From UHGV virus genome UHGV-0037349: DNA of 28,385 bases; one strand, written 5' to 3'. The notes under the pieces were generated by a model. That model made no database searches. It saw only the letters and a program-made list of their open reading frames with translations, and was not told the origin of the DNA. Positions 1-12,706 of the stretch are shown here, piece after piece (position 1 is the first letter of the stretch; every line of letters begins with the position of its first letter). Source of the stretch: a virus. The translations under genes were made by a program, and so were the position numbers.

Positions 1-10
1 GATAGTTAGC

Positions 11-1069
11 TTGGTGGGCATCGGAGATCACTTATTATCACGAGTATTCATGAAATCACTCCGCGATGATGAAAAATATAAGCACGCTAAATTCACCTTG
101 CTTGGCAACACTGCATTCAAAGATTTTTCTCTCAAGTTTGATATGAATATATTTAATCATTTCATTTGGGTTGATTGTAATAAGGTTACTCCTTATGTGC
201 AAACCAAAGAGAGCACATATACTAAGATTAAAAATAAAGCCATCAGGTTTTACATCAGAAATTTAATTAAGCACTCAAATTTCGATGAGATTATAGTTCC
301 AGATTGGTGGGGTGCGTCAACTACTTTGCGTGTTACTCCATTTATCTCTAGTGTGAGGGATAGAGCCATCATCAATGGTATGAATATACCTGACCATCAA
401 AGGGAGTTTTTTGGCTATTCCACAAAGCCGGATATTGATTTTTCAAAGCATGTCCTGGATATGAATAAAGAGTTTTTCTCTGAGATTATACCATTTCCTA
501 AATTCGAAGTTGAAATTCCACTAAAAAATAAAAATAAAGACAGTGGCAAGATTGATATTTGCATTTCACTGGGAGCCTCTGCGCCTTTTAAAAAATACCC
601 TGTATTACAATTAGCAAATGTAATAAACAGCATATCATCTTCATACAATGCCAATTTTAAAATCATTGGCTCCAATGATGAAATTTCAGATTACAATGTT
701 CTTATTGAGCATATCGATAACAAGGATATTGTAGCAGGTTTTGTTGGAAGGACTACATTATCTGAGTCGTGCGATATTGTTCTTTCATCTGAACTTTTGA
801 TTGCAAACGACACAGGCATGTTCCATGTTGGTGCTCTGGCAGGGATTAAAACTGTTTGTATTTCGAATGGTACTGGTTTGCATGCATTTGTGCCATACCC
901 TGAGGAATTTTCGAACTGTATTACGGTTTTCCCACCAGAGATACAAAACAAGGTAGGCACAAAAGATTTTATAAATGCACATGGCTGGTCTGGCTCAGCA
1001 ATTCCGATGTCGAATATATCACCAGACGATGTTCTTGCGGCTTGTTATAAATTGCTAAATAAAAAATAG
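11..1069 (+). CDS. Glycosyltransferase family 9 (LPS heptosyltransferase-like) protein; start uncertain and possibly 5'-truncated by the window edge
   Basis: Translation carries GT9-like motifs: GASAPFKKYP mid-protein and LLIANDTGMFHVGALAGIKTVCISNGTG near the C-terminus (compare recalled WaaC/WaaF/WaaQ pattern NDSGxMHxAAAL). The reading frame is open to position 2 with no in-frame stop, and the first start is a TTG at 11. Strongly AT-rich compared with the phage backbone. Confidence 0.55.
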   Translation: MVGIGDHLLSRVFMKSLRDDEKYKHAKFTLLGNTAFKDFSLKFDMNIFNHFIWVDCNKVTPYVQTKESTYTKIKNKAIRFYIRNLIKHSNFDEIIVPDWWGASTTLRVTPFISSVRDRAIINGMNIPDHQREFFGYSTKPDIDFSKHVLDMNKEFFSEIIPFPKFEVEIPLKNKNKDSGKIDICISLGASAPFKKYPVLQLANVINSISSSYNANFKIIGSNDEISDYNVLIEHIDNKDIVAGFVGRTTLSESCDIVLSSELLIANDTGMFHVGALAGIKTVCISNGTGLHAFVPYPEEFSNCITVFPPEIQNKVGTKDFINAHGWSGSAIPMSNISPDDVLAACYKLLNKK

Positions 1070-1079
1070 ATGAAGTAAT

Positions 1080-1475
1080 TCAAGCTGGCTTTTCCGGCCA
1101 GCTAATCTCTGCATTAGTGTTAGCGTCAATCCTGCTCAGCAATACCCGGTATTGCTTCCACAATGGCAGCGCTACGGTTTCTGCATCTGTCGCCATACTC
1201 AAATCAACAGCATCCTGTAAAACGCTAATCTGTTGTGTCGCCTCACTCATCAGTGCGTTTTTTGTAGCCAGATTATTGGCTATTTTCTGCTGTTTTGCTG
1301 CCTCAAGTTCTTTATTAGTTGGCGGTGGCGCACTAAAAACATCGTTATCGTAATGCCAGCCGATACCAACACCATCGGTAGAGAGAATGGCACTTGCTGA
1401 TTCGGGCCACTCTGACTCGCCATCCCAGATAACAATATTTTCTACGATACCATTTTTGATAATTGCATAGTTCAT
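1080..1475 (-). CDS. Tail fibre assembly protein (P2 G-like chaperone)
   Basis: 131-aa ORF immediately downstream of the tail fibre gene on the same strand; position and size fit the P2-family tail fibre assembly gene. Confidence 0.7.
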   Translation of the reverse strand: MNYAIIKNGIVENIVIWDGESEWPESASAILSTDGVGIGWHYDNDVFSAPPPTNKELEAAKQQKIANNLATKNALMSEATQQISVLQDAVDLSMATDAETVALPLWKQYRVLLSRIDANTNAEISWPEKPA

Positions 1476-3164
1476 TTACGCATACTCCATAACAATAACC
1501 ACACCCGCAGAGCCATTACCGCCATTAACGTTTTGATTTCCACTGATTGTTGCCGCGCCATTACCACCCGCACCATACCCACCAGGGCCAGAAATAAAGC
1601 TGCCGCCGCCAAGACCGGAACCTACAGTCCCTCCGACTGCTGTTGGGGTTGCCATCACACCGGGTAGCCCGGCGTACCCGTTGCACAAAAGGGCACCCAC
1701 GGTCGAAGTGCCACCATGACCGCCCATGCCACATGACGCAGAGGCGCCTGACGCGGTGCAGCCGTTGCCTGGCTGGCCTCCACCTGCTGAGAGATAAGAG
1801 CCAAAAGTCGTCGTGCCGCCCTGTGCGCCATTGGTTATCGTCGACGCAATACCGCCATTACCACCCGCACCAATCGTGACAAGCACGGTTGATATCGCAG
1901 ACAGGTTAAAGAGACCACGTGCCATTCCGCCGCCACCGCCACCACCACCCGCGGCGTTATAGTTTACTGTGGAAGTTGCCCATCCGCCGCCCCCACCGCC
2001 CCCAATAGCGATGACATCCGCGAACATTGCTCCGGGAGTTTTGGTGTAAGTGCCAGACGTCTTGATTATCTGCATGCCAATCAGACGACCGACTGCGCCG
2101 TTATTTACTAAACCAAGGTATGTGAGAAGACCAGTTACATCCTTTCCACTCAAATTAGTCAGCGTATTGTCCAGCGGTTGTTTACCTGCCAGTGCATTAA
2201 GCATTGTCGTGGCAAAGTTCGGGTCATTCCCCAGCGCCGCCGCCAGTTCGTTCAGTGTATCCAGTGCCGCAGGTGCAGAACCCACCATTGCCGCAATCGC
2301 CGATTTCACAAATGCCGTGGTGGCAATTTGTGTATTGTTGACCGACTGTGCCGCAGTAGGTGCGGTTGGCGTTCCGGTGAGTGCCGGACTCGACAGCGGC
2401 GCTTTCAGTGCCAGCGCATTGTTAATGGTGGTACTGAATTTCGGATCATTGTTAATGGCTGCGGCTATTTCTTTCAGCGTGTCCAGCGTGGCTGGCGCAC
2501 CATTAATAAGAGCCGTCAGAGCCGCCTGAACAAACTCGGTGGTCGCAATCTGCGTGGTGTTATTCCCTGCTGCTGGCGTTGGCGCTTTGGGTGTCCCGGT
2601 AAACGTCGGACTTTCTTTGGGTGCATACTGTGAATGCGGGTCCGGTGCGGCAAGATGTTTTGCCATCTGATCATCCGCGTACACCTTCAGCTCCAGTGCC
2701 TTGTCATCCACATACTTGCGGGGTGCCAGCACTACAGCAGGGTCGATTTTCAGGGTGATATTGTCCGTGCTACTGGTAATCAGCACCATGCGCACGGTCT
2801 GAGTGCGCCCGCTACCTTCAGCCAGTTGCGGCTTATAGCTTTCCGGGCAGTTGCCCACGGCAATCAATGCCCCGGACTCATCAAACAAGCCCACTTCACG
2901 TATCCACCAACCGCCCTCGTTTTCAGGAATCACCTGTTCGGCAATAATCTGACTGCTGTTCTGCGGGTCGATATAGAGCATATTCAGCGCAGCCCGGCGT
3001 TTCTCATTTACCAGTGCAGTCTGCTTTGAGTCTGGCGTTGGCAATACTCCGCCGCCATCGCCGACCGCCATATGGGTAATTTTTAGCGGCACACCGAGCG
3101 CGGCGGCGCTGGCAAGTTTCGCCGCGCCAATATCCGTCAGCAGGGTATAAAATTTTGTGCTCAT
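1476..3164 (-). CDS. Tail fibre protein (P2 H-like)
   Basis: 562-aa ORF; N-terminus MSTKFYTLLTDIGAAKLA resembles the recalled P2 gpH N-terminus; internal tandem ~55-aa repeats (ALDTL..IAAA..NDP.F.TT..NAL twice) and a glycine-rich C-terminal region. Start overlaps the upstream gene stop by 4 bp. Confidence 0.85.
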   Translation of the reverse strand: MSTKFYTLLTDIGAAKLASAAALGVPLKITHMAVGDGGGVLPTPDSKQTALVNEKRRAALNMLYIDPQNSSQIIAEQVIPENEGGWWIREVGLFDESGALIAVGNCPESYKPQLAEGSGRTQTVRMVLITSSTDNITLKIDPAVVLAPRKYVDDKALELKVYADDQMAKHLAAPDPHSQYAPKESPTFTGTPKAPTPAAGNNTTQIATTEFVQAALTALINGAPATLDTLKEIAAAINNDPKFSTTINNALALKAPLSSPALTGTPTAPTAAQSVNNTQIATTAFVKSAIAAMVGSAPAALDTLNELAAALGNDPNFATTMLNALAGKQPLDNTLTNLSGKDVTGLLTYLGLVNNGAVGRLIGMQIIKTSGTYTKTPGAMFADVIAIGGGGGGGWATSTVNYNAAGGGGGGGGMARGLFNLSAISTVLVTIGAGGNGGIASTITNGAQGGTTTFGSYLSAGGGQPGNGCTASGASASCGMGGHGGTSTVGALLCNGYAGLPGVMATPTAVGGTVGSGLGGGSFISGPGGYGAGGNGAATISGNQNVNGGNGSAGVVIVMEYA

Positions 3165-3766
3165 GGATTCACTCTCATTGTGTCAATAACATGGACCGCC
3201 CCGCCTTCATGCGCGGTGCCGCCAGAAATAATTGTTTCGTTGATATACGGATAGATCGTGATTTCTTCGCCAAGATAGCTGGCGGCCCCCACCCAATGCG
3301 GACCGCTGGTCTGCAGATTGATGGACATGCCGATCATGTGACGGCTACATGGTTTGGCATCGCTTATCAGCCGCTCAAGTTCCAGATAGGTATCTTCAGT
3401 GATGCCCTGGTCCTGCACGCCGATATCCAGGCGAAACGTGCCCGGTGCCTCTCCGGTCTGCCACCACTCAATAATGCGGATCAGAAAGCCGAACGGCTCC
3501 ACCACCCGCCGCACGGCACTGGTGGTTCCTTTATGCTGATGAATATAAAAAGCATCCTTCACCACCTGACGTTTGACGCTTTCTGTCCAGCCCTCGTCCC
3601 AGCGATCCACAGAGAACGCCCAAGCGAGATAAGGCAGGAAACTGACCGGACAGGTTGCCGGATTCCACAAGTCACGCAGCGGCACCTGCAGATCAGAAAT
3701 CCCGCTGCAGGTTTGCGCCAGTCGGCGCTCCAGTGGCGTTGAACCCGGTGGCAGCAGACTATTCAT
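3161..3766 (-). CDS. Baseplate/tail protein (P2 I-like)
   Basis: 201-aa ORF between J-like and H-like genes, co-oriented and overlapping; N-terminus LLPPGSTPLERRLAQ is typical of P2 gpI as I recall it. Confidence 0.8.
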   Translation of the reverse strand: MNSLLPPGSTPLERRLAQTCSGISDLQVPLRDLWNPATCPVSFLPYLAWAFSVDRWDEGWTESVKRQVVKDAFYIHQHKGTTSAVRRVVEPFGFLIRIIEWWQTGEAPGTFRLDIGVQDQGITEDTYLELERLISDAKPCSRHMIGMSINLQTSGPHWVGAASYLGEEITIYPYINETIISGGTAHEGGAVHVIDTMRVNP

Positions 3767-4667
3767 CCGTACCCCCGTTGGTCACGCTCCACTGCGTACA
3801 TGATGCCGCCTGCGTTTTGTTCAGGACCACATCCGCCAGCGGGGAAGCCAGTTCCACACGCTGAACACCCTCAACATGCAGCGCGGCAAAAATGGCGCTA
3901 CGGCGAATATCCCGACCAAGCCGCGTCTGACTGGCGATGTACCTCTGCAGGCTGGCTTTTGCCTCTGCCATTACCGGCTCTGCTTCCGGCCCCGGATAGA
4001 GAAAAATGGTGGCTTCCACGCGGTACGGGATGATTTCCGCGCTGCGAACCGTCAGACGGTCAGCCACCGGGCGGACGTTCTCACTGTTCAGGGCTTTCTC
4101 CACCACATCCAGCAGGTCTTTTTCTGCTGTTCCATCGCCTTCACGGCTTAGGACCGTAAGCACCACCTCTGCAGGTGCCGGACTGGTTGCACTGGCATCC
4201 GCCACCCGACCGTCGGCGCTTCGTGCATGAAACTCATAAGCGGCAGTTGGCCCAGCAACAGAAAGCCCTTCAAAGGCTGCAGGCACACGCAGGCGTAACG
4301 CTTCATCACTTTCCATCACAGCCGCAACGGGCGGTACAGCGTCATCATCAGCAGGTGTCACCGTCAGGCGTTTCACGTTGTAGTTAGCAGCGAGATGGTC
4401 AAGATCGCCGCCCATCGCGTAAGCCACCATCACAGCCTGCGCGGCTTCGTTAATGCGCTGGCGCAGAAGCAACTCACGGTAAGCGTTCTCCTGCAGCAAT
4501 TTGGTGACGGGTTCAGATTCCAGTTCCAGCGTACGCATCACTGCTTCCTGCTCATCTTTCGGATGAAGCGCCACAAATTCTGCCTTGCGTTCGGCAAGCA
4601 GTGTCTCAAAGTCCGGCACATCCACAATCTGCGGCGCAGGTAACTGCGAAAGGTCAATCACTGCCAT
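3759..4667 (-). CDS. Baseplate assembly protein (P2 J-like)
   Basis: ORF track gives 3759..4706; I place the start at the internal ATG (4667) giving MAVIDLSQLPAP, which matches the recalled P2 gpJ N-terminus and removes most of the overlap with W. Confidence 0.8.
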   Translation of the reverse strand: MAVIDLSQLPAPQIVDVPDFETLLAERKAEFVALHPKDEQEAVMRTLELESEPVTKLLQENAYRELLLRQRINEAAQAVMVAYAMGGDLDHLAANYNVKRLTVTPADDDAVPPVAAVMESDEALRLRVPAAFEGLSVAGPTAAYEFHARSADGRVADASATSPAPAEVVLTVLSREGDGTAEKDLLDVVEKALNSENVRPVADRLTVRSAEIIPYRVEATIFLYPGPEAEPVMAEAKASLQRYIASQTRLGRDIRRSAIFAALHVEGVQRVELASPLADVVLNKTQAASCTQWSVTNGGTDE

Positions 4668-5013
4668 TCTCTGCTCCTGTTGATACGGAAAGGGAAACAG
4701 GCACACCGTTATTCCGCCGCCCGGTCAGCTCCACCACCATTGAACCGTCAAAATTGCTGTTGATGGTGATGGAATCCAGCGTCAGCCGTGGCTCCCAGCG
4801 ACTCAGCGCCACATACACTGCCGACATGACCTGCAGGCGTAATGCCGGATTTTGTGGCTGATCTATCAGTGCCGACAGCAGGGAACCATATTCCCGGCGA
4901 GCAATGCGGCTACCCTGCGGTGTCAGCAGAATGTCCCGCACCGACTGGCGCAGATGGTCAATATCAGTAATGGCTTTACCGCTGGTATTGTTCATCCCGC
5001 TATAAAGCGTCAT
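4654..5013 (-). CDS. Baseplate wedge protein (P2 W-like, gp25-like)
   Basis: 119-aa ORF; start ATG overlaps the V stop (ATGA); gene order V-W-J-I-H-G matches P2. Confidence 0.8.
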   Translation of the reverse strand: MTLYSGMNNTSGKAITDIDHLRQSVRDILLTPQGSRIARREYGSLLSALIDQPQNPALRLQVMSAVYVALSRWEPRLTLDSITINSNFDGSMVVELTGRRNNGVPVSLSVSTGAENGSD

Positions 5014-5588
5014 ACCGGGCCTCCGGTTGTATCGCCGCCTTTCAGGACGCCAGTATGCTGATGCACATCAACCACGATCCCGTTAGAACTCATCGCACCG
5101 CCGCCCTGGGTAACGCCGCCATTGATCACTACTTCACTATTAATACGCGTGCGGTCAGCCTCCAGCACAAACTCACTGGTTTTCAGGGTGATATTGTCGG
5201 CAGCCTCAATAACCATGGATTTGATGCCCCTGACATACCAGCGCCCGGTGGCGGGTTCGTATTCAAACCAGCCACCGTCAGGATGTTCTGTCACGCAGGC
5301 GTCCGCCGACGTCGACGGTGGTGCGAACTGATTCGAATAGACAGCGGGCAGCGCAAAGGCGGTCTCCAGATTGCCGCCCAGACTCAGCACCACCACCTGC
5401 TCACCTTCCGATGGTCGCCACCATGTCCGGGCATTCCCGGCACGCAGGGTCAGCCAGCTGATCCAGTTGGTTTCTAAGTCGCCTGTTTTCACCCGGCAAA
5501 GCCAGTTTTCCCTGTCCACTTCCGTGACTACACCAGTGCGGATCAGGTTGGTGATAAGGCGCATGATTTCGGTTAGTTGTGCATTCAT
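5010..5588 (-). CDS. Baseplate spike/assembly protein (P2 V-like)
   Basis: ORF track gives 5010..5609; the internal ATG at 5588 gives MNAQLTEIMRLITNLIRTGVV, matching the recalled P2 gpV N-terminal pattern. Confidence 0.8.
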   Translation of the reverse strand: MNAQLTEIMRLITNLIRTGVVTEVDRENWLCRVKTGDLETNWISWLTLRAGNARTWWRPSEGEQVVVLSLGGNLETAFALPAVYSNQFAPPSTSADACVTEHPDGGWFEYEPATGRWYVRGIKSMVIEAADNITLKTSEFVLEADRTRINSEVVINGGVTQGGGAMSSNGIVVDVHQHTGVLKGGDTTGGPV

Positions 5589-5632
5589 CCTTCTATAGTT
5601 GCAAAGCAAGATTTTTTTTCATCGTTGTGGCA

Positions 5633-5650
5633 GTGTATGATTTTTGGCAC
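5633..5650. promoter_or_regulatory. TGT-N12-ACA element (possible Ogr-type late promoter activator site upstream of V)
   Basis: Sequence TGTatgatttttggcACA lies ~50 bp upstream of the V start. The motif is short and several copies are expected by chance in 28 kb, so this is weak. Confidence 0.2.
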
Positions 5651-6825
5651 AATTGAATTCTCATATGGAGATGACTGAAATGATCTTTGCTGCACGTTAC
5701 TTGGTCGAGTTGCCTTATGTCCTCAATATTCCAGATGGTGATTATGATTTTCTATATGAAAATAACCATTTACGCTTAACAGTTCACAACGATTACTATG
5801 CACTATTTAAAGATGCAAGCTTATTCCCTCAAACCCTATTAATCGGTACCAGAGAACAACTACTACCACATCACACAAATGAAAGAGGGATAATGAAATG
5901 CCGGACTATTATTTCTCTCGCCAACTATTGGGAATGTTTTGACCTTTTAGAAATATCACATGAAGAACTAATCAACTCTATAAGAAACCAAATAAGGAAA
6001 GAAGATAACTTCCCATCTGTGGAAGATGCTGAGATGCTCCTATCCAAAATGAGCCAGCAAGATATAGATAAAAAAATAGAGTTGGAGAGAAAAATAAAAA
6101 CTGCTAGAGAGATATTTCCACCTAAAAGATCAGAGGAATGTATCGGAATAATAAACCACTTTATAAAACAGTATAGAGTTGCCTTTAAAGATCAATTTGC
6201 AGACGAGATATCTCTTTATCAAGTTGGCTCAGGATTTACCAACGGAGTGTTACAAGAGCATTATTGCGATGGTATTAAGATAAGTGCAATTCCTTTAGTT
6301 GGAGTAATCACCCCATTAATGAGAGAAAGCTGGTATAAACACGATGAAAGTCTCATTGATAATTTCAAAAAACGTTTAATGTCAAATGAATTCAATGAAC
6401 ATCCTGAACTATTATTGATTAGAGCAGACAATCTTGTTCATAAAGGTGCATTTAGATCAGCCGTAATTGAAGCATCAGCAGGCCTTGAAAGCTATATTCT
6501 CAGAAAAATTATTAATGCCTTTCATCGCAATGGTATCAATGAATGCCAGACAAAAGAAACATTAAATAAAAACTGGAAGTTCGATGATAGATGTAAAAAA
6601 CTATTCAAACAACTCTTTAACATCTCTGTACCCGAAATTGCGCCACTTGAGTGGCAACATGCAAATAAAAACAGGAAAGAATTACGTGACAAAATAGCTC
6701 ATACATCACATGAACCAACAGAGAAAGAAACAAAAGAATTTATAAAAAGCATCAATTTATTAATTGAAAAAATAGACTCATACTTTAAGAAAATTAATGA
6801 ATCTAACGAATCAAAAAATTTATGA
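5644..6825 (+). CDS. Hypothetical protein, AT-rich cargo gene inserted between V and S; possible HEPN-like C-terminal motif
   Basis: 393-aa ORF on the opposite strand to the tail operon, markedly AT-rich. True start may be ATG 5665, 5671 or 5680 (GGAG at 5667-5670). C-terminal RKELRDKIAHTSHE contains an Rx4H arrangement. No other motif recognised. Confidence 0.6.
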   Translation: MAQLNSHMEMTEMIFAARYLVELPYVLNIPDGDYDFLYENNHLRLTVHNDYYALFKDASLFPQTLLIGTREQLLPHHTNERGIMKCRTIISLANYWECFDLLEISHEELINSIRNQIRKEDNFPSVEDAEMLLSKMSQQDIDKKIELERKIKTAREIFPPKRSEECIGIINHFIKQYRVAFKDQFADEISLYQVGSGFTNGVLQEHYCDGIKISAIPLVGVITPLMRESWYKHDESLIDNFKKRLMSNEFNEHPELLLIRADNLVHKGAFRSAVIEASAGLESYILRKIINAFHRNGINECQTKETLNKNWKFDDRCKKLFKQLFNISVPEIAPLEWQHANKNRKELRDKIAHTSHEPTEKETKEFIKSINLLIEKIDSYFKKINESNESKNL

Positions 6826-7249
6826 TTATCTCTTCTATAATATCAAAATCAGTATCATAAATTCCAAGTAACCTACGTTTAGCATAACGTATCTGTGGCC
6901 CCTTACGGCTGACGCGATCACGCAAGCCGTAATGGTGAACACGGGCAATGCGCTGTACCTTGCCTTCAAACTGCACGCTGGCAGAATCGGCGCTGGCGGC
7001 AGTTTTCAGGTATTTTGTGGTTCGCAGCTTTGCAAACATCTGACGTTTGATGCGCCCCTTTTTACTGCGTGCTGTTACCCGTCGCGGTTCATAACTACTG
7101 CCATCTGGATTGCGTTGCATCCTGATGTTCTGCTGCTGTATCCGGCGCAGTTCCTGCGCCAGCTGGCGCATCATGCGGCTTCTTGCGGCTGGCTCCAGAT
7201 TCGCCAGCAAGGCACTCAGCCAGTCGTCCACTTTCTGCAGTTCAGCCAC
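6803..7249 (-). CDS. Tail completion protein (P2 S-like)
   Basis: 148-aa ORF; sequence MAELQKVDDWLSALLANLEPAARSRMMRQLAQELRR and position between R and V fit P2 gpS. Confidence 0.8.
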   Translation of the reverse strand: MAELQKVDDWLSALLANLEPAARSRMMRQLAQELRRIQQQNIRMQRNPDGSSYEPRRVTARSKKGRIKRQMFAKLRTTKYLKTAASADSASVQFEGKVQRIARVHHYGLRDRVSRKGPQIRYAKRRLLGIYDTDFDIIEEIIINFLIR

Positions 7250-7673
7250 GTTTCACCGTCCACATTTCTTCAGGTTCATCAGGTTCCGCTATAGCTTCAA
7301 CGCTCGACACACTACCGTCAGTGCTGACCAGCACACGCTCCGTCAGTTGCAGGTTCAGGCTGATATCACAGACATCGTTGCGCAGAATATCCACCTCAAA
7401 GGTGAATAGTTTTTCCCGTAACGCCGGGTTATTGATGGCATCGGGCTGGTTATCCCTCAGCCACAGCAAAACCGGGGCCATCAGCAGATTCTGGTCGCCG
7501 CTGAAATCCTCAATCACCGCGTTCAGGGTGTAACGGTACTCCCACGACATGGAGTTGGCCCCCGTGGCAACCAGCGAACCGTTATCCACAAACAGATGCA
7601 GTTTGTCCGGGTTATTGCGGACATAAGGTACCGCTTTATTGAGGGCGTGGCGCAGGGATTGTGGTTTGTTCAC
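7242..7673 (-). CDS. Tail completion protein (P2 R-like)
   Basis: ORF track gives 7242..7694 from a TTG; a GTG at 7673 is preceded by GGAG at about 8 nt spacing and gives NKPQSLRHALNKAV, resembling the recalled P2 gpR N-terminus. Confidence 0.75.
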   Translation of the reverse strand: MNKPQSLRHALNKAVPYVRNNPDKLHLFVDNGSLVATGANSMSWEYRYTLNAVIEDFSGDQNLLMAPVLLWLRDNQPDAINNPALREKLFTFEVDILRNDVCDISLNLQLTERVLVSTDGSVSSVEAIAEPDEPEEMWTVKRG

Positions 7674-7926
7674 TGTTTCGCTCCTGACACGCAATAATCA
7701 TGTCCACTTTGTCTGCACAGACCGCCCAGGCGGCCTCCGTTTCATCCAGCAACGCGTTCAGATCACCGTTAGTGCGCGGCGCTGCCTGATCCAGCCGACA
7801 CGGCGTCACTCGCGGACAACCACTGACGGTAAGCTGCACCTCCGGTGAGTGCCGGACGTTCCCGCAGCCGGATAATGTCAGCAGGCAAAGGAGTATCAGC
7901 CCAGCGGCGTAAACCCTCGTTCTCAC
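7636..7926 (-). CDS. Rz1/LysC-like outer-membrane lipoprotein (o-spanin)
   Basis: 96-aa ORF with signal sequence and lipobox LTLSGC, proline-rich; overlaps the 3' part of the Rz/LysB-like gene in another frame, the classic spanin arrangement. Confidence 0.6.
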   Translation of the reverse strand: MRTRVYAAGLILLCLLTLSGCGNVRHSPEVQLTVSGCPRVTPCRLDQAAPRTNGDLNALLDETEAAWAVCADKVDMIIACQERNSEQTTIPAPRPQ

Positions 7927-8197
7927 GCTTCAGTTCCTCAATTCGGTGTTGTCGTTGTCTCAGCTGCGCGCTGGTCTGTTCTGCGTCGGCATAGAGCCGC
8001 GCCTGCTCCCGGTTATTGGTTTCAGTCAGAATGGACAGGCTGATAAGCTGACTGTTGCTCTTTGCCAGTGCCTGGCTTTTGCTCTGCAGCTCGTCTGCCT
8101 GCGTGCTGATGGTCTGGCTGGCATCAGCCAGCCGCCACGTCTGCCAGCCCAGCGCCGCCAGTAATAACGCCAGCACAACCAGCAGCAACCGGTTCAT
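7769..8197 (-). CDS. Rz/LysB-like inner-membrane spanin
   Basis: 142-aa ORF with N-terminal TM segment (LLLVVLALLLAALGW) followed by a charged helical region rich in Q/R/E; sits in the lysis cassette. Confidence 0.7.
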   Translation of the reverse strand: MNRLLLVVLALLLAALGWQTWRLADASQTISTQADELQSKSQALAKSNSQLISLSILTETNNREQARLYADAEQTSAQLRQRQHRIEELKRENEGLRRWADTPLPADIIRLRERPALTGGAAYRQWLSASDAVSAGSGSAAH

Positions 8198-8571
8198 GCT
8201 GATACCTGTTGCGCAATCTGATTACGGGTCATCCAGAAGGCAATAACGGTCAGCAGATAAAAGACCAGGGTAATAGCCCACCCCGTCCAGGCGAGACTGA
8301 CGACAATCAGCAATCGCATCACCCAGCTGATAAATACGTTTTCTTTTCGGGTAATTGTCTTCAGCAAAGATGCCCTCAACTCCTGCCAGAGCGGGCCATT
8401 CTTAATTAACGCAGCCAGTGCTACCGGAATTACCGCCCATGTCAGCAAACAGGCTACCCAAACGCCGGACGCTGCCAGTACCGGAAAAATCCCCTGCGGA
8501 TACACCATTGCTTCGATTAACAGCGCCATCCATAACATCAGAAACAGCCCGCTGATTAATTTCTTTTTCAT
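8194..8571 (-). CDS. LysA-like membrane protein (lysis timing/antiholin-like)
   Basis: Multi-TM small protein downstream of the endolysin. Start placed at ATG 8571 (MKKKLISG...) with AGGGAG upstream, rather than the ORF-track start at 8643. Confidence 0.6.
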   Translation of the reverse strand: MKKKLISGLFLMLWMALLIEAMVYPQGIFPVLAASGVWVACLLTWAVIPVALAALIKNGPLWQELRASLLKTITRKENVFISWVMRLLIVVSLAWTGWAITLVFYLLTVIAFWMTRNQIAQQVSA

Positions 8572-8572
8572 T

Positions 8573-9085
8573 TCAGTTTGCTCCCTGTAAGCACCAGGCC
8601 ATCTCCCGCGCACGGCGGTTATCCAGCCCCTGATTAAACACACCTTTCACGTAAACCCAGCGCGGCAACTGTCGGCACGCATCCGCCCAGCGCCGCTGAT
8701 TGAGTAATTTCACCAGCGTGGAGCTGCAGGCATTACCTGTCCCCACGTTGAAGGCAAATGACACCACCGCGTCATACACTTTCTGCGGTGGCTGTTGCTT
8801 CACACACCTTTCCAGTGACCGCTCCACACGCAGCACGTTGGAGATAAGCCCTTCTGCTGCCTGTCGTTCCGTAATGGTTTTGCCGGGAATGACGCCAGAT
8901 GTATTACCAATGCCGTCAGTCCATACACCCGCGCTGCACTGATACGGCTGCAGACGACAGCCTTCGTAATCGGCAATCAGTTTCAGCCCCTCCACGGAGG
9001 TGTGAAGCTGCTGAAAACCCGGCAGCGTGGCAGCAATAGCCAGCACGGTCCCGACAAGGCAGCGTTTAACGATTGATGGATTCAT
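8573..9085 (-). CDS. Endolysin, T4/lambda-type lysozyme (GH24-like), probable signal-anchor-release type
   Basis: 170-aa ORF with E-x8-D-x5-T-like catalytic region (ADYEGCRLQPYQCSAGVWTDGIGNT) and a hydrophobic N-terminal segment (CLVGTVLAIAATLPG). Confidence 0.8.
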   Translation of the reverse strand: MNPSIVKRCLVGTVLAIAATLPGFQQLHTSVEGLKLIADYEGCRLQPYQCSAGVWTDGIGNTSGVIPGKTITERQAAEGLISNVLRVERSLERCVKQQPPQKVYDAVVSFAFNVGTGNACSSTLVKLLNQRRWADACRQLPRWVYVKGVFNQGLDNRRAREMAWCLQGAN

Positions 9086-9281
9086 AGTCCTCCCGCGAGA
9101 TCTGCCCGTCGCGCAGAAGCTGGTAGGCTTTGTGTTTGTAGTACCAGTTGATAGCCAGCATCAGCACACCAATCATCAGGCCGCCCAGCGTTGAGGCATC
9201 CTTGATGGACAAATCGCCCAGCCAGGCCAGGACAACGGCGATGCAGTACGTGATAAAGGCGCTGATTCGCTCAAGCGTCAT
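9066..9281 (-). CDS. Holin
   Basis: 71-aa protein with two hydrophobic segments and a charged C-terminus, immediately upstream of the endolysin and overlapping its start. Confidence 0.7.
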   Translation of the reverse strand: MTLERISAFITYCIAVVLAWLGDLSIKDASTLGGLMIGVLMLAINWYYKHKAYQLLRDGQISREDYESINR

Positions 9282-9284
9282 AAT

Positions 9285-9488
9285 TCAGTCCCATAGCTGG
9301 ACGGTCTGCACGGTGGTGGTTGTCGGTATGTCCGGCAGCTCCACCTGCAGCCCGTGAGGTAAAAAGGGGCCGTATTCGGCAAGCCCCGGATTTGCCTTCA
9401 GTACCTGCTCCGTGACACCCTGCGTGCGCCCGTAATGACGCCAGCAAAGCGCGTCCACCGTGTCATACTGATACGCACGCACTTTCAT
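9285..9488 (-). CDS. Tail protein X-like (LysM-like)
   Basis: 67-aa ORF between head completion gene and holin, as in P2 (L-X-Y-K order); size matches P2 gpX. Confidence 0.7.
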   Translation of the reverse strand: MKVRAYQYDTVDALCWRHYGRTQGVTEQVLKANPGLAEYGPFLPHGLQVELPDIPTTTTVQTVQLWD

Positions 9489-10015
9489 CAGATAAGCTCC
9501 ACTGTGCAGTGCGGCGCATCCTGCACCCGGCTGATGGCCCAGCGGGCGTCACGCCACAAATCACCGCTTGCTTCCGCCAGTTCCTCGCCTCGCTTCACAC
9601 CAGACGCTGTGGCGTCATAGTCCTGATAACGCTCGTTGAGCATGGCGCGTGCCCAGCAGTAAACCGCGTTGAAATAGTGCTGAATGCGCTCACTTTTGCC
9701 GTCCAGCTGTTCCGCCGGAACCTCTGCCAGCGAGGCATACCCCAGCATCTGCTGGCGTCTGCGAAACTCATACAGCTCTGCGTTGACCTCCGAAATTGCC
9801 GACAGGGCAACCTGCTTTAAACGCGGCTGCGTCACCGTGCCGTCAGTGCGCATCACGCTGCGAAACTCCGACAGGTCCACATCAGGCCAGAACGGCGTAT
9901 TTCTGATGATTTCCGCCTGTTCCGGTGCCTGTTCTGGCGCAACAAACTTCATGCTGCTTTCTCCTGAAATAGAGGGCGGTGGACGAGGTTTTGATGTGGC
10001 GGTGCCTTTCGCCAC
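9488..10015 (-). CDS. Head completion/stabilisation protein (P2 L-like)
   Basis: 175-aa ORF following the M-like gene; order and size fit P2 gpL. Confidence 0.75.
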   Translation of the reverse strand: MAKGTATSKPRPPPSISGESSMKFVAPEQAPEQAEIIRNTPFWPDVDLSEFRSVMRTDGTVTQPRLKQVALSAISEVNAELYEFRRRQQMLGYASLAEVPAEQLDGKSERIQHYFNAVYCWARAMLNERYQDYDATASGVKRGEELAEASGDLWRDARWAISRVQDAPHCTVELI

Positions 10016-10047
10016 CCCGTGCCGCCCGTGCGCGGGGGCACGTTCTG

Positions 10048-10698
10048 TCAGCGACTGTCATTGCGCAATCTGCGCTCCAGCTGCTGTTTGTCTTTTTTCA
10101 CGCCACAGCGGGGATCGAGCTGTAACGCATGGTTGAGATGATTAAGGGCGGAAGCCGGATTACTTTCACTCAGGACAGTGCCAATCGCTTTATGCAGACG
10201 CGCCCGTGACTGGTCCGGCATATCCAGACCGTCTGTCAGCTCCAGCGTCTGCAGCAACAGATCGGCATCAAAGCCGGTAGTGGCAAGCATTGCGCTCTGC
10301 GCAGCGTCTGCCATTTCCTCTGCCAGCACGGTCTGCACGTTGCGGTTACCCAGCGGCATCACCCAGCCATGACGCAGGGCATGACGCCCGATCTCCAGCG
10401 CCCCGGCATAATCTCCGGCATCAATGCGCCACAGCATCACGTACATCAGCACGTCATCCTGTTGAGCGCCTCCGGCAGCCAGTACACCCTCAGCCCAGGC
10501 GGCGTACTTCGGCAGCAGCTCCACCTTGATTTCCGCTTTTTTGACCGTGGACTGAACGCCCTTGAGACGGCGGCGGTCTTCCGCCAGTTGCAGCAGCATC
10601 AGGTCATAGCCCGACGCGTGGCGAACGCTGCCGCCCTCGCGGGCGGCCTGTTCAGCCTGAACGCGCAGGCGATGCTGCCGTGCGGGACTCAGGCTCAT
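10048..10698 (-). CDS. Terminase endonuclease (small) subunit (P2 M-like)
   Basis: 216-aa ORF directly downstream of the capsid gene; gene order O-N-M-L is conserved. Confidence 0.75.
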   Translation of the reverse strand: MSLSPARQHRLRVQAEQAAREGGSVRHASGYDLMLLQLAEDRRRLKGVQSTVKKAEIKVELLPKYAAWAEGVLAAGGAQQDDVLMYVMLWRIDAGDYAGALEIGRHALRHGWVMPLGNRNVQTVLAEEMADAAQSAMLATTGFDADLLLQTLELTDGLDMPDQSRARLHKAIGTVLSESNPASALNHLNHALQLDPRCGVKKDKQQLERRLRNDSR

Positions 10699-10701
10699 GG
10701 A

Positions 10702-11760
10702 TTACGCTCCGGTTTCTACTGCGACGGCGCTGAAGTCGCCAATCTGGATGTTTTCCACCAGTGCTGCGCAGCGGTAGTCCTCAACCACATAGGCTTCGTT
10801 AACGGATTCAAAGTTTTCAATCCGGTCACGTTTCGGGTTGTCGATAACTGAACGGCGGCGGGTGTCTTCCTGCCAGTAGATGGACAGGTTATCCAGACGG
10901 GTGATCAGCAGCGCATTCGGCGGGAAAAACGGCGCACGCACGGCCTGCAGGCCCCCCATGCGCTTCTGACTGATGATCATATCGGCAGCCAGTTTTTCAC
11001 TGTTTTCCTGCTCTTTGTTGACCAGCGGGAAATACTTGTCAGACAGCAGTTCACGGCCGCAAATCACCACCAGATCGTCATCGTCCTGGTAGACCACGTC
11101 GATAAGCTCATTGACGGCATCCATCACCACGGCGTCCAGGTTGGCATATTCGCCACCTTTCCCGACTTTCAGCGCGCCCGGTGTGGTTTCACCGCCCGTG
11201 GTGGTGCTGCCCATGACATGATCCGGTGCATCCTCACGGATTTTCTGCAGCCAGCCTTTGTTCACATCCTGCAGCAGCGGGTTTTCGCTACGGTTGGAGG
11301 TTTTCGCACGCTTCACGCCGTTAAAGCCGATCATGATGCGGTCCAGTGCCTGACGTTTCACGATGGCGTCACGGATACGCACCTGGAAATCCTGAAACTT
11401 CGCCCACAGGTCCAGCTTCGCGTAGGTCAGTACCGTGTCAAAGTTGGTCTGCTCGCATTTGTATTCCACATCGACCATCAGCGTAGGATCGACAGGTTCA
11501 CGCTCTTTCGCGGTGGTGTCAGTGGTTCCGGCAATGGTGCTACCAACACCCAACCCCAGCAGCTGACCGGACTGCTCAGTCACTGGCGTGACGTTAATCA
11601 GCGTCAGGAAAGCGGCGGACTGCTGGATCTGGTCTTCCAATGTCTGCTGCACGGACGGCTCTACGGTGAACTTGCTGGACAGTTCTTCAACTGCCACACC
11701 GTTCAGACGCGCCAGTTGCTGCAGGTAAGCGTTAAAAGCAAAGCGGGTATTCTTCTTCAT
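10702..11760 (-). CDS. Major capsid protein (P2 N-like)
   Basis: 352-aa ORF (P2 gpN is about 357 aa as recalled), preceded by the scaffold gene; typical composition and position. Confidence 0.9.
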   Translation of the reverse strand: MKKNTRFAFNAYLQQLARLNGVAVEELSSKFTVEPSVQQTLEDQIQQSAAFLTLINVTPVTEQSGQLLGLGVGSTIAGTTDTTAKEREPVDPTLMVDVEYKCEQTNFDTVLTYAKLDLWAKFQDFQVRIRDAIVKRQALDRIMIGFNGVKRAKTSNRSENPLLQDVNKGWLQKIREDAPDHVMGSTTTGGETTPGALKVGKGGEYANLDAVVMDAVNELIDVVYQDDDDLVVICGRELLSDKYFPLVNKEQENSEKLAADMIISQKRMGGLQAVRAPFFPPNALLITRLDNLSIYWQEDTRRRSVIDNPKRDRIENFESVNEAYVVEDYRCAALVENIQIGDFSAVAVETGA

Positions 11761-11776
11761 CAGGTTTTGTGCTCCA

Positions 11777-12610
11777 TCAGCAATTGGTCAGAGTGTCAGC
11801 GGGGGCGTTACCGCCTGTTGCACGCTGGCGGTAGTCCTGGCGGCTGTCTTCATGACTCAGCTTGTCCACCAGTTCGTTAAAGGCGGTCTGCTGTGCCTGC
11901 AGGGCAGTCTCCAGCTCAGACAGACGTTCTTCCTGCTCAGACAGGGATTTTTCGGTGCGCGCACTCAGGTTCTGCTGCTCAATGGCGACCAGTTCCACGG
12001 CCTTATGCACATCAGAGAACCGGGCGTCATCGGACTGCTCTTTTTTGGTGAACAGCGCCGTGACACGGGCAAACAGGGACGGTTTGTCATCCTGGATTTC
12101 TTCCAGTTCGATCACCGTTTCCTCTGCAGCGGTAAAAAGATTGGCGGGATTCTGCTTGCGGTTTGCCAGCGGGTTATGGGCTGCACTGGCGCTGAATGTC
12201 AGCATTTCAGTGCCCAGACTGGCAGGGTCATCAGTGGCAGCCAGGCCGACCAGGTAGGCTTTGCCCGTATCAGCGAACTTCGGGCTGACTTCCATAGAGG
12301 TGAATAATTTCTGGCCTTTTTTCACCAGTTCCACCAGGGACTCCGTTGGCTCAACGTCGGCATACAGCGCCATCTTGCCTGCCAGCGGACCTTCCGTGAT
12401 TTCTTCAGCAAACAGCGCCGTCACCTTGCCGTAGCGGTTAAAGGTGCTGTCCGGCAGATAAGACTTGATGTGCTCAAGGTTAATCAGCGCGGTATACACC
12501 GCCGGGTTGTAGCTGGCTGCCATCTGTTCCAGCCATTCACGCTGGATTTCGCGTCCGTCGGTGGTGGCACCTTCCACCCCGATGCGAAAACGCTTTGCTT
12601 TCACTGTCAT
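11777..12610 (-). CDS. Capsid scaffolding protein (P2 O-like)
   Basis: 277-aa ORF, first gene of the O-N-M-L operon, divergent from the terminase gene. Confidence 0.85.
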   Translation of the reverse strand: MTVKAKRFRIGVEGATTDGREIQREWLEQMAASYNPAVYTALINLEHIKSYLPDSTFNRYGKVTALFAEEITEGPLAGKMALYADVEPTESLVELVKKGQKLFTSMEVSPKFADTGKAYLVGLAATDDPASLGTEMLTFSASAAHNPLANRKQNPANLFTAAEETVIELEEIQDDKPSLFARVTALFTKKEQSDDARFSDVHKAVELVAIEQQNLSARTEKSLSEQEERLSELETALQAQQTAFNELVDKLSHEDSRQDYRQRATGGNAPADTLTNC

Positions 12611-12688
12611 GAGCCGTGCTCCGTTAGAAAAAACTTACTGGAGCCTTATGGTTGCGGTGATGGGGGCAGTGAAACAATGCGCGGTATT

Positions 12689-12706
12689 TGTACCGACAAC
12701 CACACA
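12689..12706. promoter_or_regulatory. TGT-N12-ACA element in the divergent O/P intergenic region (possible Ogr-type late promoter site)
   Basis: TGTaccgacaaccacACA lies in the 142-bp O/P intergenic region, ~85 bp upstream of the O start. The motif is short and expected by chance several times per window. Confidence 0.25.

What the first reader, a model, noticed from the sequence alone, without database searches (positions are those of the whole stretch)
11..1069. GT9 (heptosyltransferase-like) glycosyltransferase gene beside the tail fibre assembly gene
The position next to the tail fibre assembly gene is where P2-family phages carry variable cargo. The AT-rich ORF carries GT9-type motifs, suggesting a phage-borne enzyme that modifies LPS core or another glycan. 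That could alter the receptor for superinfecting phages or the cell surface of the lysogen. The N-terminus does not look like a canonical GT9 start and the frame is open to the window edge, so the gene may be truncated here or fused.
Basis: partly seen in the sequence, partly recalled or inferred. Interest (0 to 1): 0.5.

Follow-up and report, generated by a model that had tools for sequence, protein, structure and literature searches.

The report
Glycosyltransferase gene inside invertible tail-fibre segment
The ORF is a real, intact, foreign family-9 glycosyltransferase gene in an E. coli P2/186-like prophage, and it sits in one arm of a flip-flop (invertible) tail-fibre DNA segment, where related phages carry a second fibre tip.

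Summary
Window 2-1069 (+) is a 36%-GC ORF with a Pfam GT9 hit above threshold, a GT-B fold closest to GT9 structures, and the catalytic Asp and nucleotide-sugar motifs retained. It is not truncated or fused: the full gene is 360 codons and only 5 lie off-window. It is not an ortholog of WaaC, WaaF or WaaQ. Its nearest relatives (38% identity or less) sit in polysaccharide clusters of environmental bacteria.

The gene occupies one arm of a 2.23-kb Pin/Gin-type invertible tail-fibre segment. One crossover site lies in fibre gene H (window 2101-2129). The partner lies 101 nt upstream of the ATG, off-window. Related prophages show both orientations. In one, H is complete and GT9 is antisense. In the other, H is cut at 353 aa and GT9 follows it in the late operon. 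Canonical relatives carry a second tip plus chaperone in this arm. Other relatives with a 96-97% identical tip carry an O-acetyltransferase-family gene there instead.

In the nearest genome (NH-21), IS3 has replaced the invertase gene, so the segment is probably locked.

The likely function is envelope-glycan (LPS) modification. Neither that function nor the route of expression has been shown.

The parts
1..1069 (+). GT9-family glycosyltransferase gene, codons 6-360 plus stop. The ATG lies 14 nt before window position 1. The full gene is L001 11987-13069 (360 aa, WP_032277884.1).
   Evidence: ORF. Pfam PF01075, 30.5 bits against a cut-off of 22. AlphaFold model with pTM 0.81; Foldseek top hits are the GT9 structures 3tov, WaaC 2h1h and WaaF 1psw, TM about 0.7. 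D14, K201, E232, D275-T-G and H280 align with WaaC D13, K192, E222, D261-T-G and H266. GC is 0.356.
1080..1475 (-). Tail-fibre assembly (chaperone) gene. It is convergent with GT9, with a 10-nt gap between the two stop codons.
   Evidence: Pfam Caudo_TAP, 82.5 bits. PHROG tail fibre assembly families. Annotated WP_032277885.1.
1476..2114 (-). Variable, glycine-rich receptor-binding tip of tail-fibre gene H (about aa 350-562). This is the part of H that lies inside the invertible segment.
   Evidence: Pfam Gly_rich_2, aa 370-558. The same tip (90-97% identical) is fused to other fibre N-termini, or stands silent as 225-226-aa ORFs, in other prophages.
2101..2129 (.). Crossover (pix/gix-like) site inside H: TTATTTACTAAACC|AA|GGTATGTGAGAAG, with the core dinucleotide at 2115-2116. 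Its inverted partner GCATTTTCATAAACG|TT|GCTTTAAGATGAGAG lies off-window at L001 11869-11900, about window -131 to -100.
   Evidence: The blastn breakpoints of the inverted block between L002 and L004 fall on these sites.
1..2116 (.). In-window part of the 2.23-kb invertible segment (GT9 | tfa | fibre tip). The segment extends 116 nt beyond the left window edge.
   Evidence: L002 5881-8116 is 99.7% identical but inverted in L004, while the flanks are collinear at about 95%. The same segment lies in the opposite relative orientation in e14/Mu-like prophages.
2117..3164 (-). Constant N-terminal part of tail-fibre gene H (aa 1 to about 349), outside the invertible segment.
   Evidence: Pfam Phage_tail_fib, aa 1-149, 213.7 bits. 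In the flipped state (L004) this part ends as a 353-aa ORF, 4 codons past the core.

Best explanation
Window 1-1069 is an intact gene (5 codons off-window) for a divergent GT9-family, GT-B-fold glycosyltransferase. It was acquired from an AT-rich donor. It occupies one arm of a 2.23-kb Pin/Gin-type invertible tail-fibre segment of a P2/186-like prophage, in the slot where most relatives carry an alternative fibre tip plus chaperone.

Shown by comparison of loci: recombination between a site inside fibre gene H and a site 101 nt upstream of the GT9 ATG flips the block [GT9 | tfa | tip]. In the window's orientation H is complete, the tip and chaperone are in the late operon, and GT9 is antisense to that operon, facing the invertase side. 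In the flipped orientation H ends 4 codons past the crossover (353 aa). GT9, with its own GAGG ribosome-binding site, then lies sense in the late tail operon. The tip and chaperone are silent.

Inferred: the enzyme transfers a sugar (heptose is typical for GT9, but the donor is unknown) from a nucleotide sugar onto the LPS core or another envelope glycan at the cytoplasmic face of the inner membrane. This would change the cell surface, and possibly the receptor for phages that carry the linked glycine-rich tip. This is a lysogenic-conversion or self-exclusion function that travels with the tip as one portable cassette.

In the genome nearest to the window (NH-21), IS3 has precisely replaced the invertase gene. 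In Gin, Hin and Cin systems the recombinational enhancer lies inside the invertase gene, so the enhancer has probably gone too. This copy is therefore probably locked fibre-ON, with the IS3 transposase reading towards GT9. How GT9 is transcribed in a lysogen is unresolved.
For: GT9 identity: Pfam hit above threshold. PDB sequence and profile hits are only to the GT9 entries 3tov, WaaF and WaaC. The fold matches the same entries. D14 and H280 are invariant in a 46-member family alignment, and the K, E and D-T-G motifs align to the WaaC ligand-binding residues.

Intactness.

Foreign origin and rarity: GC is 0.36. The gene occurs in 5 of 5426 complete E. coli genomes. There is no hit in 50,697 phage records. 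The next-best relatives are 38% identical or less and lie in polysaccharide clusters.

Invertible segment: a serine invertase (Resolvase + HTH_7; phrog_125 'DNA invertase') is adjacent in L002, L003, L004, L011 and L012. The crossover sites share the same core dinucleotide. Both orientations occur within about 95%-identical P2-like backbones (L002 versus L004). Inversion restores the reading frame of stfP, giving ...ALENL|GLVNNGAVGRL (read).

Slot normally holds a second tip: CE10 and 663 genomes carry the same invertase, and L021 is a further example.

Parallel cargo: an Acyl_transf_3 / phrog O-acetyltransferase gene sits in the same slot, with the same inner half-site TTGCTTTAAGATG, next to a 96-97% identical tip. 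It is found in both phage backbones and both orientations.

IS3 replacement of the invertase.

Precedents: neaT (PMC3573123); Xenorhabdus tailocin glycosyltransferases with a proposed LPS self-resistance role (bioRxiv 10.1101/2025.04.19.648921).
Against: There is no experimental or expression evidence. No convincing sigma-70 promoter lies between the crossover site and the ATG. The only consensus match overlaps the start codon, and the count is no higher than in shuffled sequence. Lysogenic expression in the fibre-ON state is therefore unsupported.

The only evident transcription route is the late operon after inversion. That route coincides with a truncated fibre, which fits a receptor-masking benefit poorly.

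Donor and acceptor are unknown. The distant relatives lie in O-antigen/EPS-type clusters rather than waa core clusters.

The gene is nucleotide-identical in 7 of 8 loci, so purifying selection cannot be assessed. It could be a recent, neutral passenger.

Only 8 loci are known, and inversion is inferred from comparisons between strains, not observed within one culture.
Confidence: 0.6

Rival explanations
1. Ordinary hotspot moron. GT9 is a free-standing lysogenic-conversion gene in the P2 Z/fun hotspot, like neaT, expressed from its own promoter in the lysogen. The invertible context is incidental and has no bearing on its function.
For: The position between G and FI, the opposite strand, the AT-richness and the rarity mirror neaT in CFT073 (PMC3573123). 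In the window's lineage the invertase is gone, so here the gene effectively is a static moron. The hotspot is known to hold mixed cargo and invertases (bioRxiv 10.1101/2024.10.15.618418).
Against: The gene lies strictly between the two crossover sites and is found flipped in 4 of 8 loci. No promoter of its own is evident. A second, unrelated glycan-modifying gene occupies the identical slot with the identical inner half-site. This points to an established cargo arm rather than a random insertion.
Confidence: 0.25
2. Silent passenger or decay product. A foreign fragment destroyed the alternative tip arm. GT9 is not expressed at useful levels (for example H-NS-silenced), and the flipped state is simply a defective-fibre state tolerated in prophages.
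For: No promoter is detectable. The gene is extremely rare and near nucleotide-identical, so the event is recent. IS elements lock or erode the switch in several copies: IS3 in NH-21 and IS1 in L013 and L014.
Against: The ORF is intact with catalytic residues retained in all 8 loci. It has a good ribosome-binding site. The cassette has spread between two unrelated prophage backbones and between strains from at least four countries. The same slot has independently been filled by an O-acetyltransferase-family gene.
Confidence: 0.15
3. Protein glycosyltransferase. GT9 glycosylates a virion protein, for example the Gly/Ser/Thr-rich fibre tip, in the way that TibC/Aah heptosylate autotransporters.
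For: The GT9 superfamily includes protein heptosyltransferases (my own knowledge of the BAHT family). The gene sits next to a glycine-rich tip. One BFVD match is annotated 'Aah/TibC', at TM 0.51.
Against: GT9 and the tip plus chaperone are on opposite strands inside the segment. They can never be in the late transcript together in either orientation. No TibC or Aah structure appears among the PDB sequence/profile hits or the top 50 Foldseek PDB hits, whereas LPS-type GT9 enzymes do. The parallel cargo is a membrane O-acetyltransferase type that acts on glycans.
Confidence: 0.05

Closest known systems
Invertible tail-fibre segments driven by Gin/Pin/Cin serine invertases (Mu G segment, P1 C segment, e14 P segment)
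   Same: An adjacent Resolvase + HTH_7 invertase. Two inverted crossover sites of about 26 bp with an identical central dinucleotide, one of them inside the fibre gene at the constant/variable junction. Inversion swaps what is fused to the constant fibre N-terminus. Both orientations are seen in nature.
   Different: Only one arm encodes a fibre tip plus chaperone. The other arm encodes a complete glycosyltransferase gene with its own start codon and ribosome-binding site. One orientation therefore gives a truncated fibre (353 aa in P2-like phages, 98 aa for stfP) instead of an alternative host range. In the window's lineage the invertase has been replaced by IS3.
[quoted passage not shown]
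   Same: A single AT-rich, phyletically rare, envelope-related enzyme gene. It lies between the tail-fibre assembly gene G and the sheath gene FI and is transcribed opposite to the tail genes.
   Different: NeaT is an Acyl_transf_3 acyltransferase, not a GT9 enzyme. That paper does not describe an invertible context. Here the cargo is bounded by crossover sites and flips. I did not test whether neaT itself lies in such a segment.
LPS heptosyltransferases WaaC, WaaF and WaaQ (CAZy GT9)
   Same: The Pfam family, the GT-B fold, the catalytic Asp in the first beta-alpha loop, and the K / E / D-T-G-x-x-H nucleotide-sugar motifs.
   Different: Identity in structure-based alignments is only 13-18%. 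Scores are far below the NCBIfam equivalog cut-offs. The closer relatives (24-38%) lie in O-antigen/EPS-like clusters, not waa clusters. Donor and acceptor are unknown.
Glycosyltransferase genes in the hypervariable tail-fibre region of the Xenorhabdus xenorhabdicin (P2-like tailocin) locus (bioRxiv 10.1101/2025.04.19.648921)
   Same: Glycosyltransferase genes embedded among tail-fibre genes of a P2-type contractile tail, on a fragment found inverted between strains. The authors propose LPS 'self-resistance' to the linked receptor-binding domains.
   Different: A different host and a different element (a tailocin). Those loci have no invertase gene, the repeats described are short (AAAGGAA), the fragments carry several genes, and the glycosyltransferase families differ.
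Serotype-converting phage genes (gtrABC; oac of Sf6)
   Same: Prophage-borne enzymes that modify LPS and block re-adsorption. The parallel cargo found here belongs to the Oac-type family (PF01757, phrog_3333).
   Different: There is no GtrA/GtrB/Gtr-specific trio. The location is in the tail-fibre switch rather than next to int/att. GT9 enzymes act at the cytoplasmic face, not in the periplasm.

Membership tests
CAZy GT9 / Pfam PF01075 Glyco_transf_9 | Significant match to the family HMM above the curated threshold | tested here: met
   30.5 bits against a gathering score of 22, E 3e-7. A profile of its 46-member subfamily hits only GT9 entries in the PDB: 3tov at 3.6e-18, WaaF at 2.7e-15, WaaC at 7e-8.
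CAZy GT9 / Pfam PF01075 Glyco_transf_9 | GT-B fold (two Rossmann-like domains) closest to GT9 structures | tested here: met
   AlphaFold2 model with pLDDT 76 and pTM 0.81. Foldseek PDB ranks 1-9 are 3tov, WaaC and WaaF, with E from 4e-17 to 1e-10 and TM 0.62-0.77. The N-domain loops 108-150 and 172-184 are of low confidence.
CAZy GT9 / Pfam PF01075 Glyco_transf_9 | Catalytic Asp in the beta1-alpha1 loop (WaaC D13) and the C-domain K / E / D-T-G-x-x-H ligand-binding residues | tested here: met
   D14 and H280 are invariant in alignment A2. FKKY, NDE and NDTGMFH align to WaaC DDKHW (K192), PHEEE and VDTGLSH (D261) through the profile alignment. The roles of these residues in WaaC come from my own knowledge of the literature.
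LPS heptosyltransferase I/II/III orthologs (WaaC, WaaF, WaaQ) | Score at or above the NCBIfam equivalog cut-off | tested here: not met
   TIGR02195: 33.9 against 134.6. TIGR02193: 25 against 185.3. TIGR02201: 15 against 170.2. NF008162: 15 against 569.
LPS heptosyltransferase I/II/III orthologs (WaaC, WaaF, WaaQ) | ADP-heptose donor and Kdo2-lipid A / inner-core acceptor | not testable with these tools
   This needs enzyme assays or LPS mass spectrometry. The gene context of distant relatives (polysaccharide clusters) does not point to the inner core.
Gin/Pin/Cin/Hin-type invertible tail-fibre segment | Adjacent small serine recombinase (Resolvase + HTH_7) | tested here: inconclusive
   Present next to the segment in L002, L003, L004, L011 and L012. 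Pfam Resolvase 179 bits and HTH_7 57.5 bits; phrog_125 DNA invertase. Absent in the genome nearest to the window, where IS3 takes its exact place. The window itself ends before this region.
Gin/Pin/Cin/Hin-type invertible tail-fibre segment | Two inverted crossover sites with an identical core dinucleotide, one inside the fibre gene | tested here: met
   Window 2101-2129 and L001 11869-11900 / L002 5869-5900. The recombinant junctions predicted from these sites are exactly those read in L004, L003 and L021.
Gin/Pin/Cin/Hin-type invertible tail-fibre segment | Both orientations exist | tested here: met
   L002 against L004: the flanks are collinear at about 95% and the 2236-bp block is inverted at 99.7%. 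Census: fibre-ON in L001, L002, L009 and L011; GT9-sense in L003, L004, L010 and L012. This is between-strain evidence only. Switching within one culture was not observed.
Gin/Pin/Cin/Hin-type invertible tail-fibre segment | Each arm encodes an alternative fibre C-terminus plus chaperone | tested here: not met
   One arm is the GT9 gene. The flipped state gives H' of 353 aa or StfP' of 98 aa with a stop 4 codons past the core. Canonical two-tip relatives: L008 and L021.
Gin/Pin/Cin/Hin-type invertible tail-fibre segment | Fis-dependent enhancer within the invertase gene | not tested
   Assumed from knowledge of the Gin, Hin and Cin systems. No scan was made.
P2 hotspot moron (Z/fun position, 'moron position 2') | Non-essential, compositionally foreign gene between G and FI with its own regulatory signals | tested here: inconclusive
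   Position, strand and AT-richness are met. A promoter and terminator of its own were not found: the only consensus promoter overlaps the ATG, and counts are no higher than in shuffles.
BAHT protein heptosyltransferases (TibC / Aah) | Specific sequence or fold similarity to TibC/Aah rather than to LPS-type GT9 enzymes | tested here: not met
   No TibC or Aah chain appears among the PDB profile hits at E <= 1e-3 or in the top 50 Foldseek PDB matches. There is only a weak BFVD match annotated Aah/TibC, at TM 0.51.

The most novel reading that the evidence does not exclude
The segment is a portable, invertase-flanked 'receptor-binding tip plus receptor-modifying enzyme' cassette. The DNA inversion is a genuine two-state switch. 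In one state the prophage can build an infective fibre. In the other it forgoes the fibre and places an envelope-glycan-modifying enzyme (GT9 here, an O-acetyltransferase in sister segments) under late-operon or junction-dependent control. This would give phase-variable surface modification or self-exclusion matched to the linked tip. The same crossover sites would also let the cassette move between unrelated prophages (P2-like and e14/Mu-like).
Probability: 0.2. Interest if true: 0.7.

Novelty: new variant of a known kind. Interest (0 to 1): 0.5.

Why it matters
Invertible tail-fibre segments are a textbook device for switching phage host range between two fibre tips. Here one of the two alternatives is a complete cell-envelope enzyme gene, not a fibre. 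The same slot is filled by two unrelated glycan-modifying enzyme families, next to nearly the same receptor-binding tip, in two unrelated prophage backbones, and in both orientations.

If the enzyme masks the receptor of the linked tip, these cassettes would pair a receptor-binding protein with its matching receptor modifier. They would also offer a simple genetic handle (locked orientations) for testing phase-variable LPS modification and superinfection exclusion in E. coli.

If the enzyme has no such role, the locus still shows how the silent arm of an inversion switch serves as a safe landing pad for cargo. It also shows how IS elements then lock the switch.

For annotation: the 'incomplete' fibre genes (stfP, the 'phage tail protein' pseudogenes) next to such cargo are orientation states, not decay.

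Tried and rejected
1. Truncation or fusion of the ORF: rejected. Complete genomes show a 360-codon gene starting 14 nt upstream of the window.

2. Core heptosyltransferase ortholog: rejected by the NCBIfam cut-offs.

3. Known phage family: no PHROG hit, no tblastn hit in 50,697 phage records, and only two remote hits on non-enterobacterial plasmids.

4. Defence-system component: no PADLOC hit.

5. Automatic inverted-repeat search: it missed the crossover sites because they are short and imperfect. I found them by reading the junctions.

6. Promoter search for GT9, in the invertase-side, IS3-side and AT3 contexts: only consensus matches overlapping the start codons, no more frequent than in shuffles. 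Uninformative.

7. Search for further cargo types through the shared half-site (AWACSTTGCTTTAAGATG) in IMG/VR and in the GTDB species representatives: apart from L010, the IMG/VR hits had no invertase, fibre, tfa, GT9 or AT3 similarity by tblastn. The 24 GTDB hits all lie in unrelated, non-enterobacterial taxa and were judged chance matches from their record titles alone.

8. Protein-pattern scans for GT9 relatives in the GTDB representatives and in JGI metagenomes: none.

9. Other 'hypothetical' or 'integrase' neighbours of the invertase in sister prophages (H10, H13, H19): these turned out to be ordinary mis-annotated alternative tip and chaperone arms.

10. AFDB50 fold search: the library was unavailable.

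11. P2 late-promoter (Ogr-type TGT-N12-ACA) motif upstream of GT9: none seen by eye in the sequences.
Full report
**1. The observation**

The + strand frame is open from window position 2 to the stop at 1067-1069. The ORF tool's 'TTG at 11' is an edge artefact. The ORF has GC 0.359. With that composition, 355 stop-free codons have a probability of about 4e-12.

Pfam gives Glyco_transf_9 at 30.5 bits (gathering score 22).
- a Caudo_TAP tail-fibre assembly gene at 1080-1475 (-);
- a P2-type fibre gene at 1476-3164 (-), with an N-terminal Phage_tail_fib domain and a C-terminal Gly_rich_2 domain.

**2. Where the window comes from, and the true gene**

Bases 1-13,500 of the window differ at two positions from the E. 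coli NH-21 chromosome. There the gene starts 14 nt upstream of window position 1. It encodes 360 aa (WP_032277884.1, 'glycosyltransferase family 9 protein') beginning MKKVLIVSLVGIGDHLL. Only five codons are missing from the window, so the gene is neither truncated nor fused.

The N-terminus aligns with the start of the GT9 structure 3tov. The prophage is P2/186-like: P2-type capsid, terminase, baseplate, sheath and tube genes, replication gene A, a 186-type CI repressor and an integrase.

**3. What the protein is**

- PDB matches: sequence and profile searches hit only GT9 entries. The single sequence hits 3tov at 3.5e-5. The 46-member family profile hits 3tov at 3.6e-18, WaaF at 2.7e-15 and WaaC at 7e-8.
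- Fold: an AlphaFold2 model (pLDDT 76, pTM 0.81) has its nine best Foldseek PDB matches in 3tov, WaaC and WaaF, with TM 0.62-0.77.
- Catalytic residues: D14 and H280 are invariant in the family alignment. Through the profile alignment, FKKY, NDE and NDTGMFH align with the WaaC stretches DDKHW, PHEEE and VDTGLSH. From my knowledge of WaaC, these stretches hold K192, E222, D261 and H266. The enzyme therefore looks catalytically competent.
- Not a core heptosyltransferase: it scores 15-34 bits against NCBIfam equivalog cut-offs of 135-569.
- An outlier: among 5.8 billion proteins the word-indexed search found seven relatives, the best at 27% identity. The exhaustive HMMER search found 2277 hits at E <= 1e-3, but only three at E <= 1e-30: the protein itself, a 114-aa fragment of it, and one protein at 38% identity.
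- Context of relatives: three relatives examined lie in polysaccharide clusters with GT2, GT1, GT61, methyltransferase and pyruvyl-transferase genes. One named relative comes from a Bacteroidota MAG.
- Absent from phage collections: no PHROG family, no match in 50,697 deposited phages, and only weak GT9-like viral folds in BFVD.
- Rarity: the gene occurs in 5 of 5426 complete E. coli genomes.
- A caveat on P0001: the database protein used for the searches and the model differs from the window's protein by one residue, K154N, in a low-confidence loop.

**4. The context: an invertible tail-fibre segment**

In the P2-like prophages of EC21Z-137 and CT29, a 188-aa serine recombinase lies between the sheath gene and GT9. 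It has Resolvase and HTH_7 domains and matches phrog_125 'DNA invertase'.

In strains TUM14664 and 102651 the identical GT9 and chaperone proteins lie in an e14/Mu-like prophage. The gene order there is: YmfQ, StfP (annotated 'missing C-terminus'), GT9 (+), tfa (-), glycine-rich ORF (-), invertase (+).

Reading the junctions gives Gin/Pin-like crossover sites:

| Locus and junction | Sequence (outer or inner half \| core \| other half) |
|---|---|
| L002, invertase \| GT9 | GCATTTTCTTAAACG \| TT \| GCTTTAAGATGAGAG |
| L002, tip \| H | GTTATTTACTAAACC \| AA \| GGTATGCGAGAAG |
| L003, stfP \| GT9 | TCTCGAAAACC \| TT \| GCTTTAAGATGA |
| L003, tip \| invertase | TTATTTACTAAACC \| AA \| CGTTTATGAAAATG |

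The fibre-internal site is at window 2101-2129. Its partner is off-window at L001 11869-11900.

A metagenomic P2-like scaffold (L004) carries the flipped state. Its order is H' of 353 aa (+), GT9 (+), tfa (-), Gly_rich_2 (-), invertase (+), sheath (+). In a blastn comparison of L002 with L004, the flanks are collinear at about 95% identity. The 2236-bp block L002 5881-8116 is 99.7% identical and inverted. The H|GT9 junction in L004 reads cttctcacatacc|tt|gctttaagatgagag, exactly as predicted.

The two states are as follows.
- Flipped state: the fibre frame stops 4 codons past the core (...LALR*). After a further 84 nt come a GAGG ribosome-binding site and the GT9 ATG.
- Flipping back restores the frame...ALENL|GLVNNGAVGRL..., which is the sequence of the window's H protein.

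Census of the eight loci:
- Fibre-ON: NH-21, EC21Z-137, CT29 and IMG/VR L009. The L009 contig ends at the crossover site.
- GT9-sense: L004, TUM14664, 102651 and IMG/VR L010.

**5. What normally sits in that arm, and a parallel cargo**

The same sheath-adjacent invertase region occurs in 663 E. coli genomes. In the five sister prophages I opened (CE10, SW071618, NRZ14408, VCSW8 and L021), the arm next to the invertase holds an alternative fibre tip plus a second chaperone. In L021 the silent arm is this same glycine-rich tip. GT9 therefore replaces an alternative tip/chaperone pair.

The glycine-rich tip has 96-97% identical relatives (P0156, P0158) in other e14/Mu-like prophages of E. coli and Citrobacter. 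There the GT9 slot is occupied by a 381-aa Acyl_transf_3 gene (82 bits; phrog_3333 'O-acetyltransferase'). The layout is the same convergent one, with an invertase beyond it.

In a second, P2-like prophage of TUM14664, that acyltransferase variant is in the cargo-sense state: truncated H, then AT3, then silent tfa and tip, then the invertase (junctions).

The GT9 and AT3 arms share the inner half-site TTGCTTTAAGATG but nothing else in their leaders. So two unrelated glycan-modifying enzyme families occupy the same arm, in two phage backbones and in both orientations.

**6. The copy in the window**

In NH-21, IS3 sits exactly where the invertase gene lies in EC21Z-137. The flanks match to the base on both sides...aaaataa[IS3]gatcaatcccc.... 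The GT9-side crossover site is retained.

In Gin, Hin and Cin systems the recombinational enhancer lies in the 5' part of the invertase gene (my knowledge; not tested here). This copy is therefore probably locked in the fibre-ON orientation. The IS3 transposase reads towards GT9, and no terminator is predicted between them, so read-through is possible but unproven.

**7. Mechanism: shown and inferred**

Shown:
- the gene is intact;
- it belongs to the GT9 family and has the GT9 fold;
- the catalytic motifs are retained;
- it lies inside an invertible segment;
- both orientation states exist, with the coding consequences described;
- it replaces an alternative tip;
- a parallel acyltransferase cargo exists;
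- IS3 has replaced the invertase.

Inferred:
- the enzyme glycosylates LPS or another envelope glycan;
- this alters the cell surface or the receptor of the linked tip;
- the inversion changes its expression.

The weak point is expression. No credible promoter lies between the crossover site and the ATG. The only evident transcription route is the late operon after inversion, and that state also abolishes the fibre.

Rivals considered:
- a static hotspot moron like neaT (PMC3573123);
- a silent passenger in a decaying switch;
- a protein glycosyltransferase acting on the fibre. This is unlikely, because GT9 and the tip can never share a late transcript, and the protein resembles LPS-type GT9 enzymes rather than TibC/Aah.

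**8. Comparison with what is known, and novelty**

- Invertible fibre segments (Mu G, P1 C, e14 P) are classical.
- The P2 Z/fun hotspot is known to carry mixed cargo and, often, an invertase with inverted neighbouring genes (bioRxiv 10.1101/2024.10.15.618418).
- neaT is an AT-rich acyltransferase at this position in CFT073.
- Xenorhabdus tailocin loci carry glycosyltransferase genes on an inverted fragment, with a proposed LPS self-resistance role.
- GT9 genes have been listed in Pseudomonas prophages.

I found no description of a complete envelope-enzyme gene serving as one arm of a Pin/Gin-type fibre switch. The searched library lacks most subscription-journal papers.

I rate this a new variant of a known kind, of moderate interest (0.5). 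The architecture is solid and somewhat surprising. The function and the biological meaning of the switch are untested, and the element is rare and recent: 7 of the 8 loci are nucleotide-identical.

Noticed in passing
window 15567-17970 (-): An AT-rich (GC 0.33-0.41) three-gene set matches the PADLOC type IX retron-like defence models: RT_IX at 15567-16544 (E 6e-129; Pfam RVT_1), HTH_IX at 16716-17459 (E 1.5e-61) and HEPN_IX at 17446-17970 (E 1.4e-52). It lies between the portal-side end of the late genes and replication gene A, which is the P2 old/tin cargo hotspot.
   Followed up: partly
window 5644-6825 (+): An AT-rich (GC about 0.35-0.38) 393-aa ORF on the strand opposite to the tail genes, inserted between baseplate gene V and virion-morphogenesis gene S. 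It matches phrog_28299 (unknown function, E 3e-277). It has no PADLOC hit and only sub-threshold Pfam/NCBIfam matches. EC21Z-137 has a different 219-aa hypothetical gene at this position (L002 11681-12340), so this is a third variable cargo slot.
   Followed up: partly
L001 10563-11820 (off-window, immediately upstream of window position 1): In NH-21, IS3 precisely replaces the 567-bp invertase gene found in EC21Z-137 and CT29. The GT9-side crossover site remains intact. IS1 similarly truncates or interrupts the acyltransferase-bearing sister segments (L013, L014).
   Followed up: yes
window 1490-1554 (-), extreme C-terminus of fibre gene H: A dense cluster of about 27 substitutions relative to EC21Z-137, CT29 and L009. 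The adjacent tfa and GT9 are identical or differ by 1 nt. This looks like a small recombinant patch at the very tip of the receptor-binding domain.
   Followed up: no
L023 (E. coli TUM14664, NZ_CP135649.1 14703-24098) and L003 (same genome, 1981669-1995166): One strain carries both cargo variants. A P2-like prophage holds the O-acetyltransferase arm in the cargo-sense state, and an e14/Mu-like prophage at the rcl locus holds the GT9 arm, also cargo-sense. RefSeq annotates the truncated fibre genes as pseudogenes ('missing C-terminus'), although they are orientation states.
   Followed up: partly
L017 7298-8067 (Citrobacter sp. RHBSTW-00903, CP056251.1): The acyltransferase gene in this segment is split by an insertion of about 770 bp relative to L014. 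I did not identify the insert.
   Followed up: no
window 22256-23173 (-): A D12-class N6-adenine DNA methyltransferase gene (Pfam 255.8 bits) directly downstream of replication gene A in the prophage early region.
   Followed up: no
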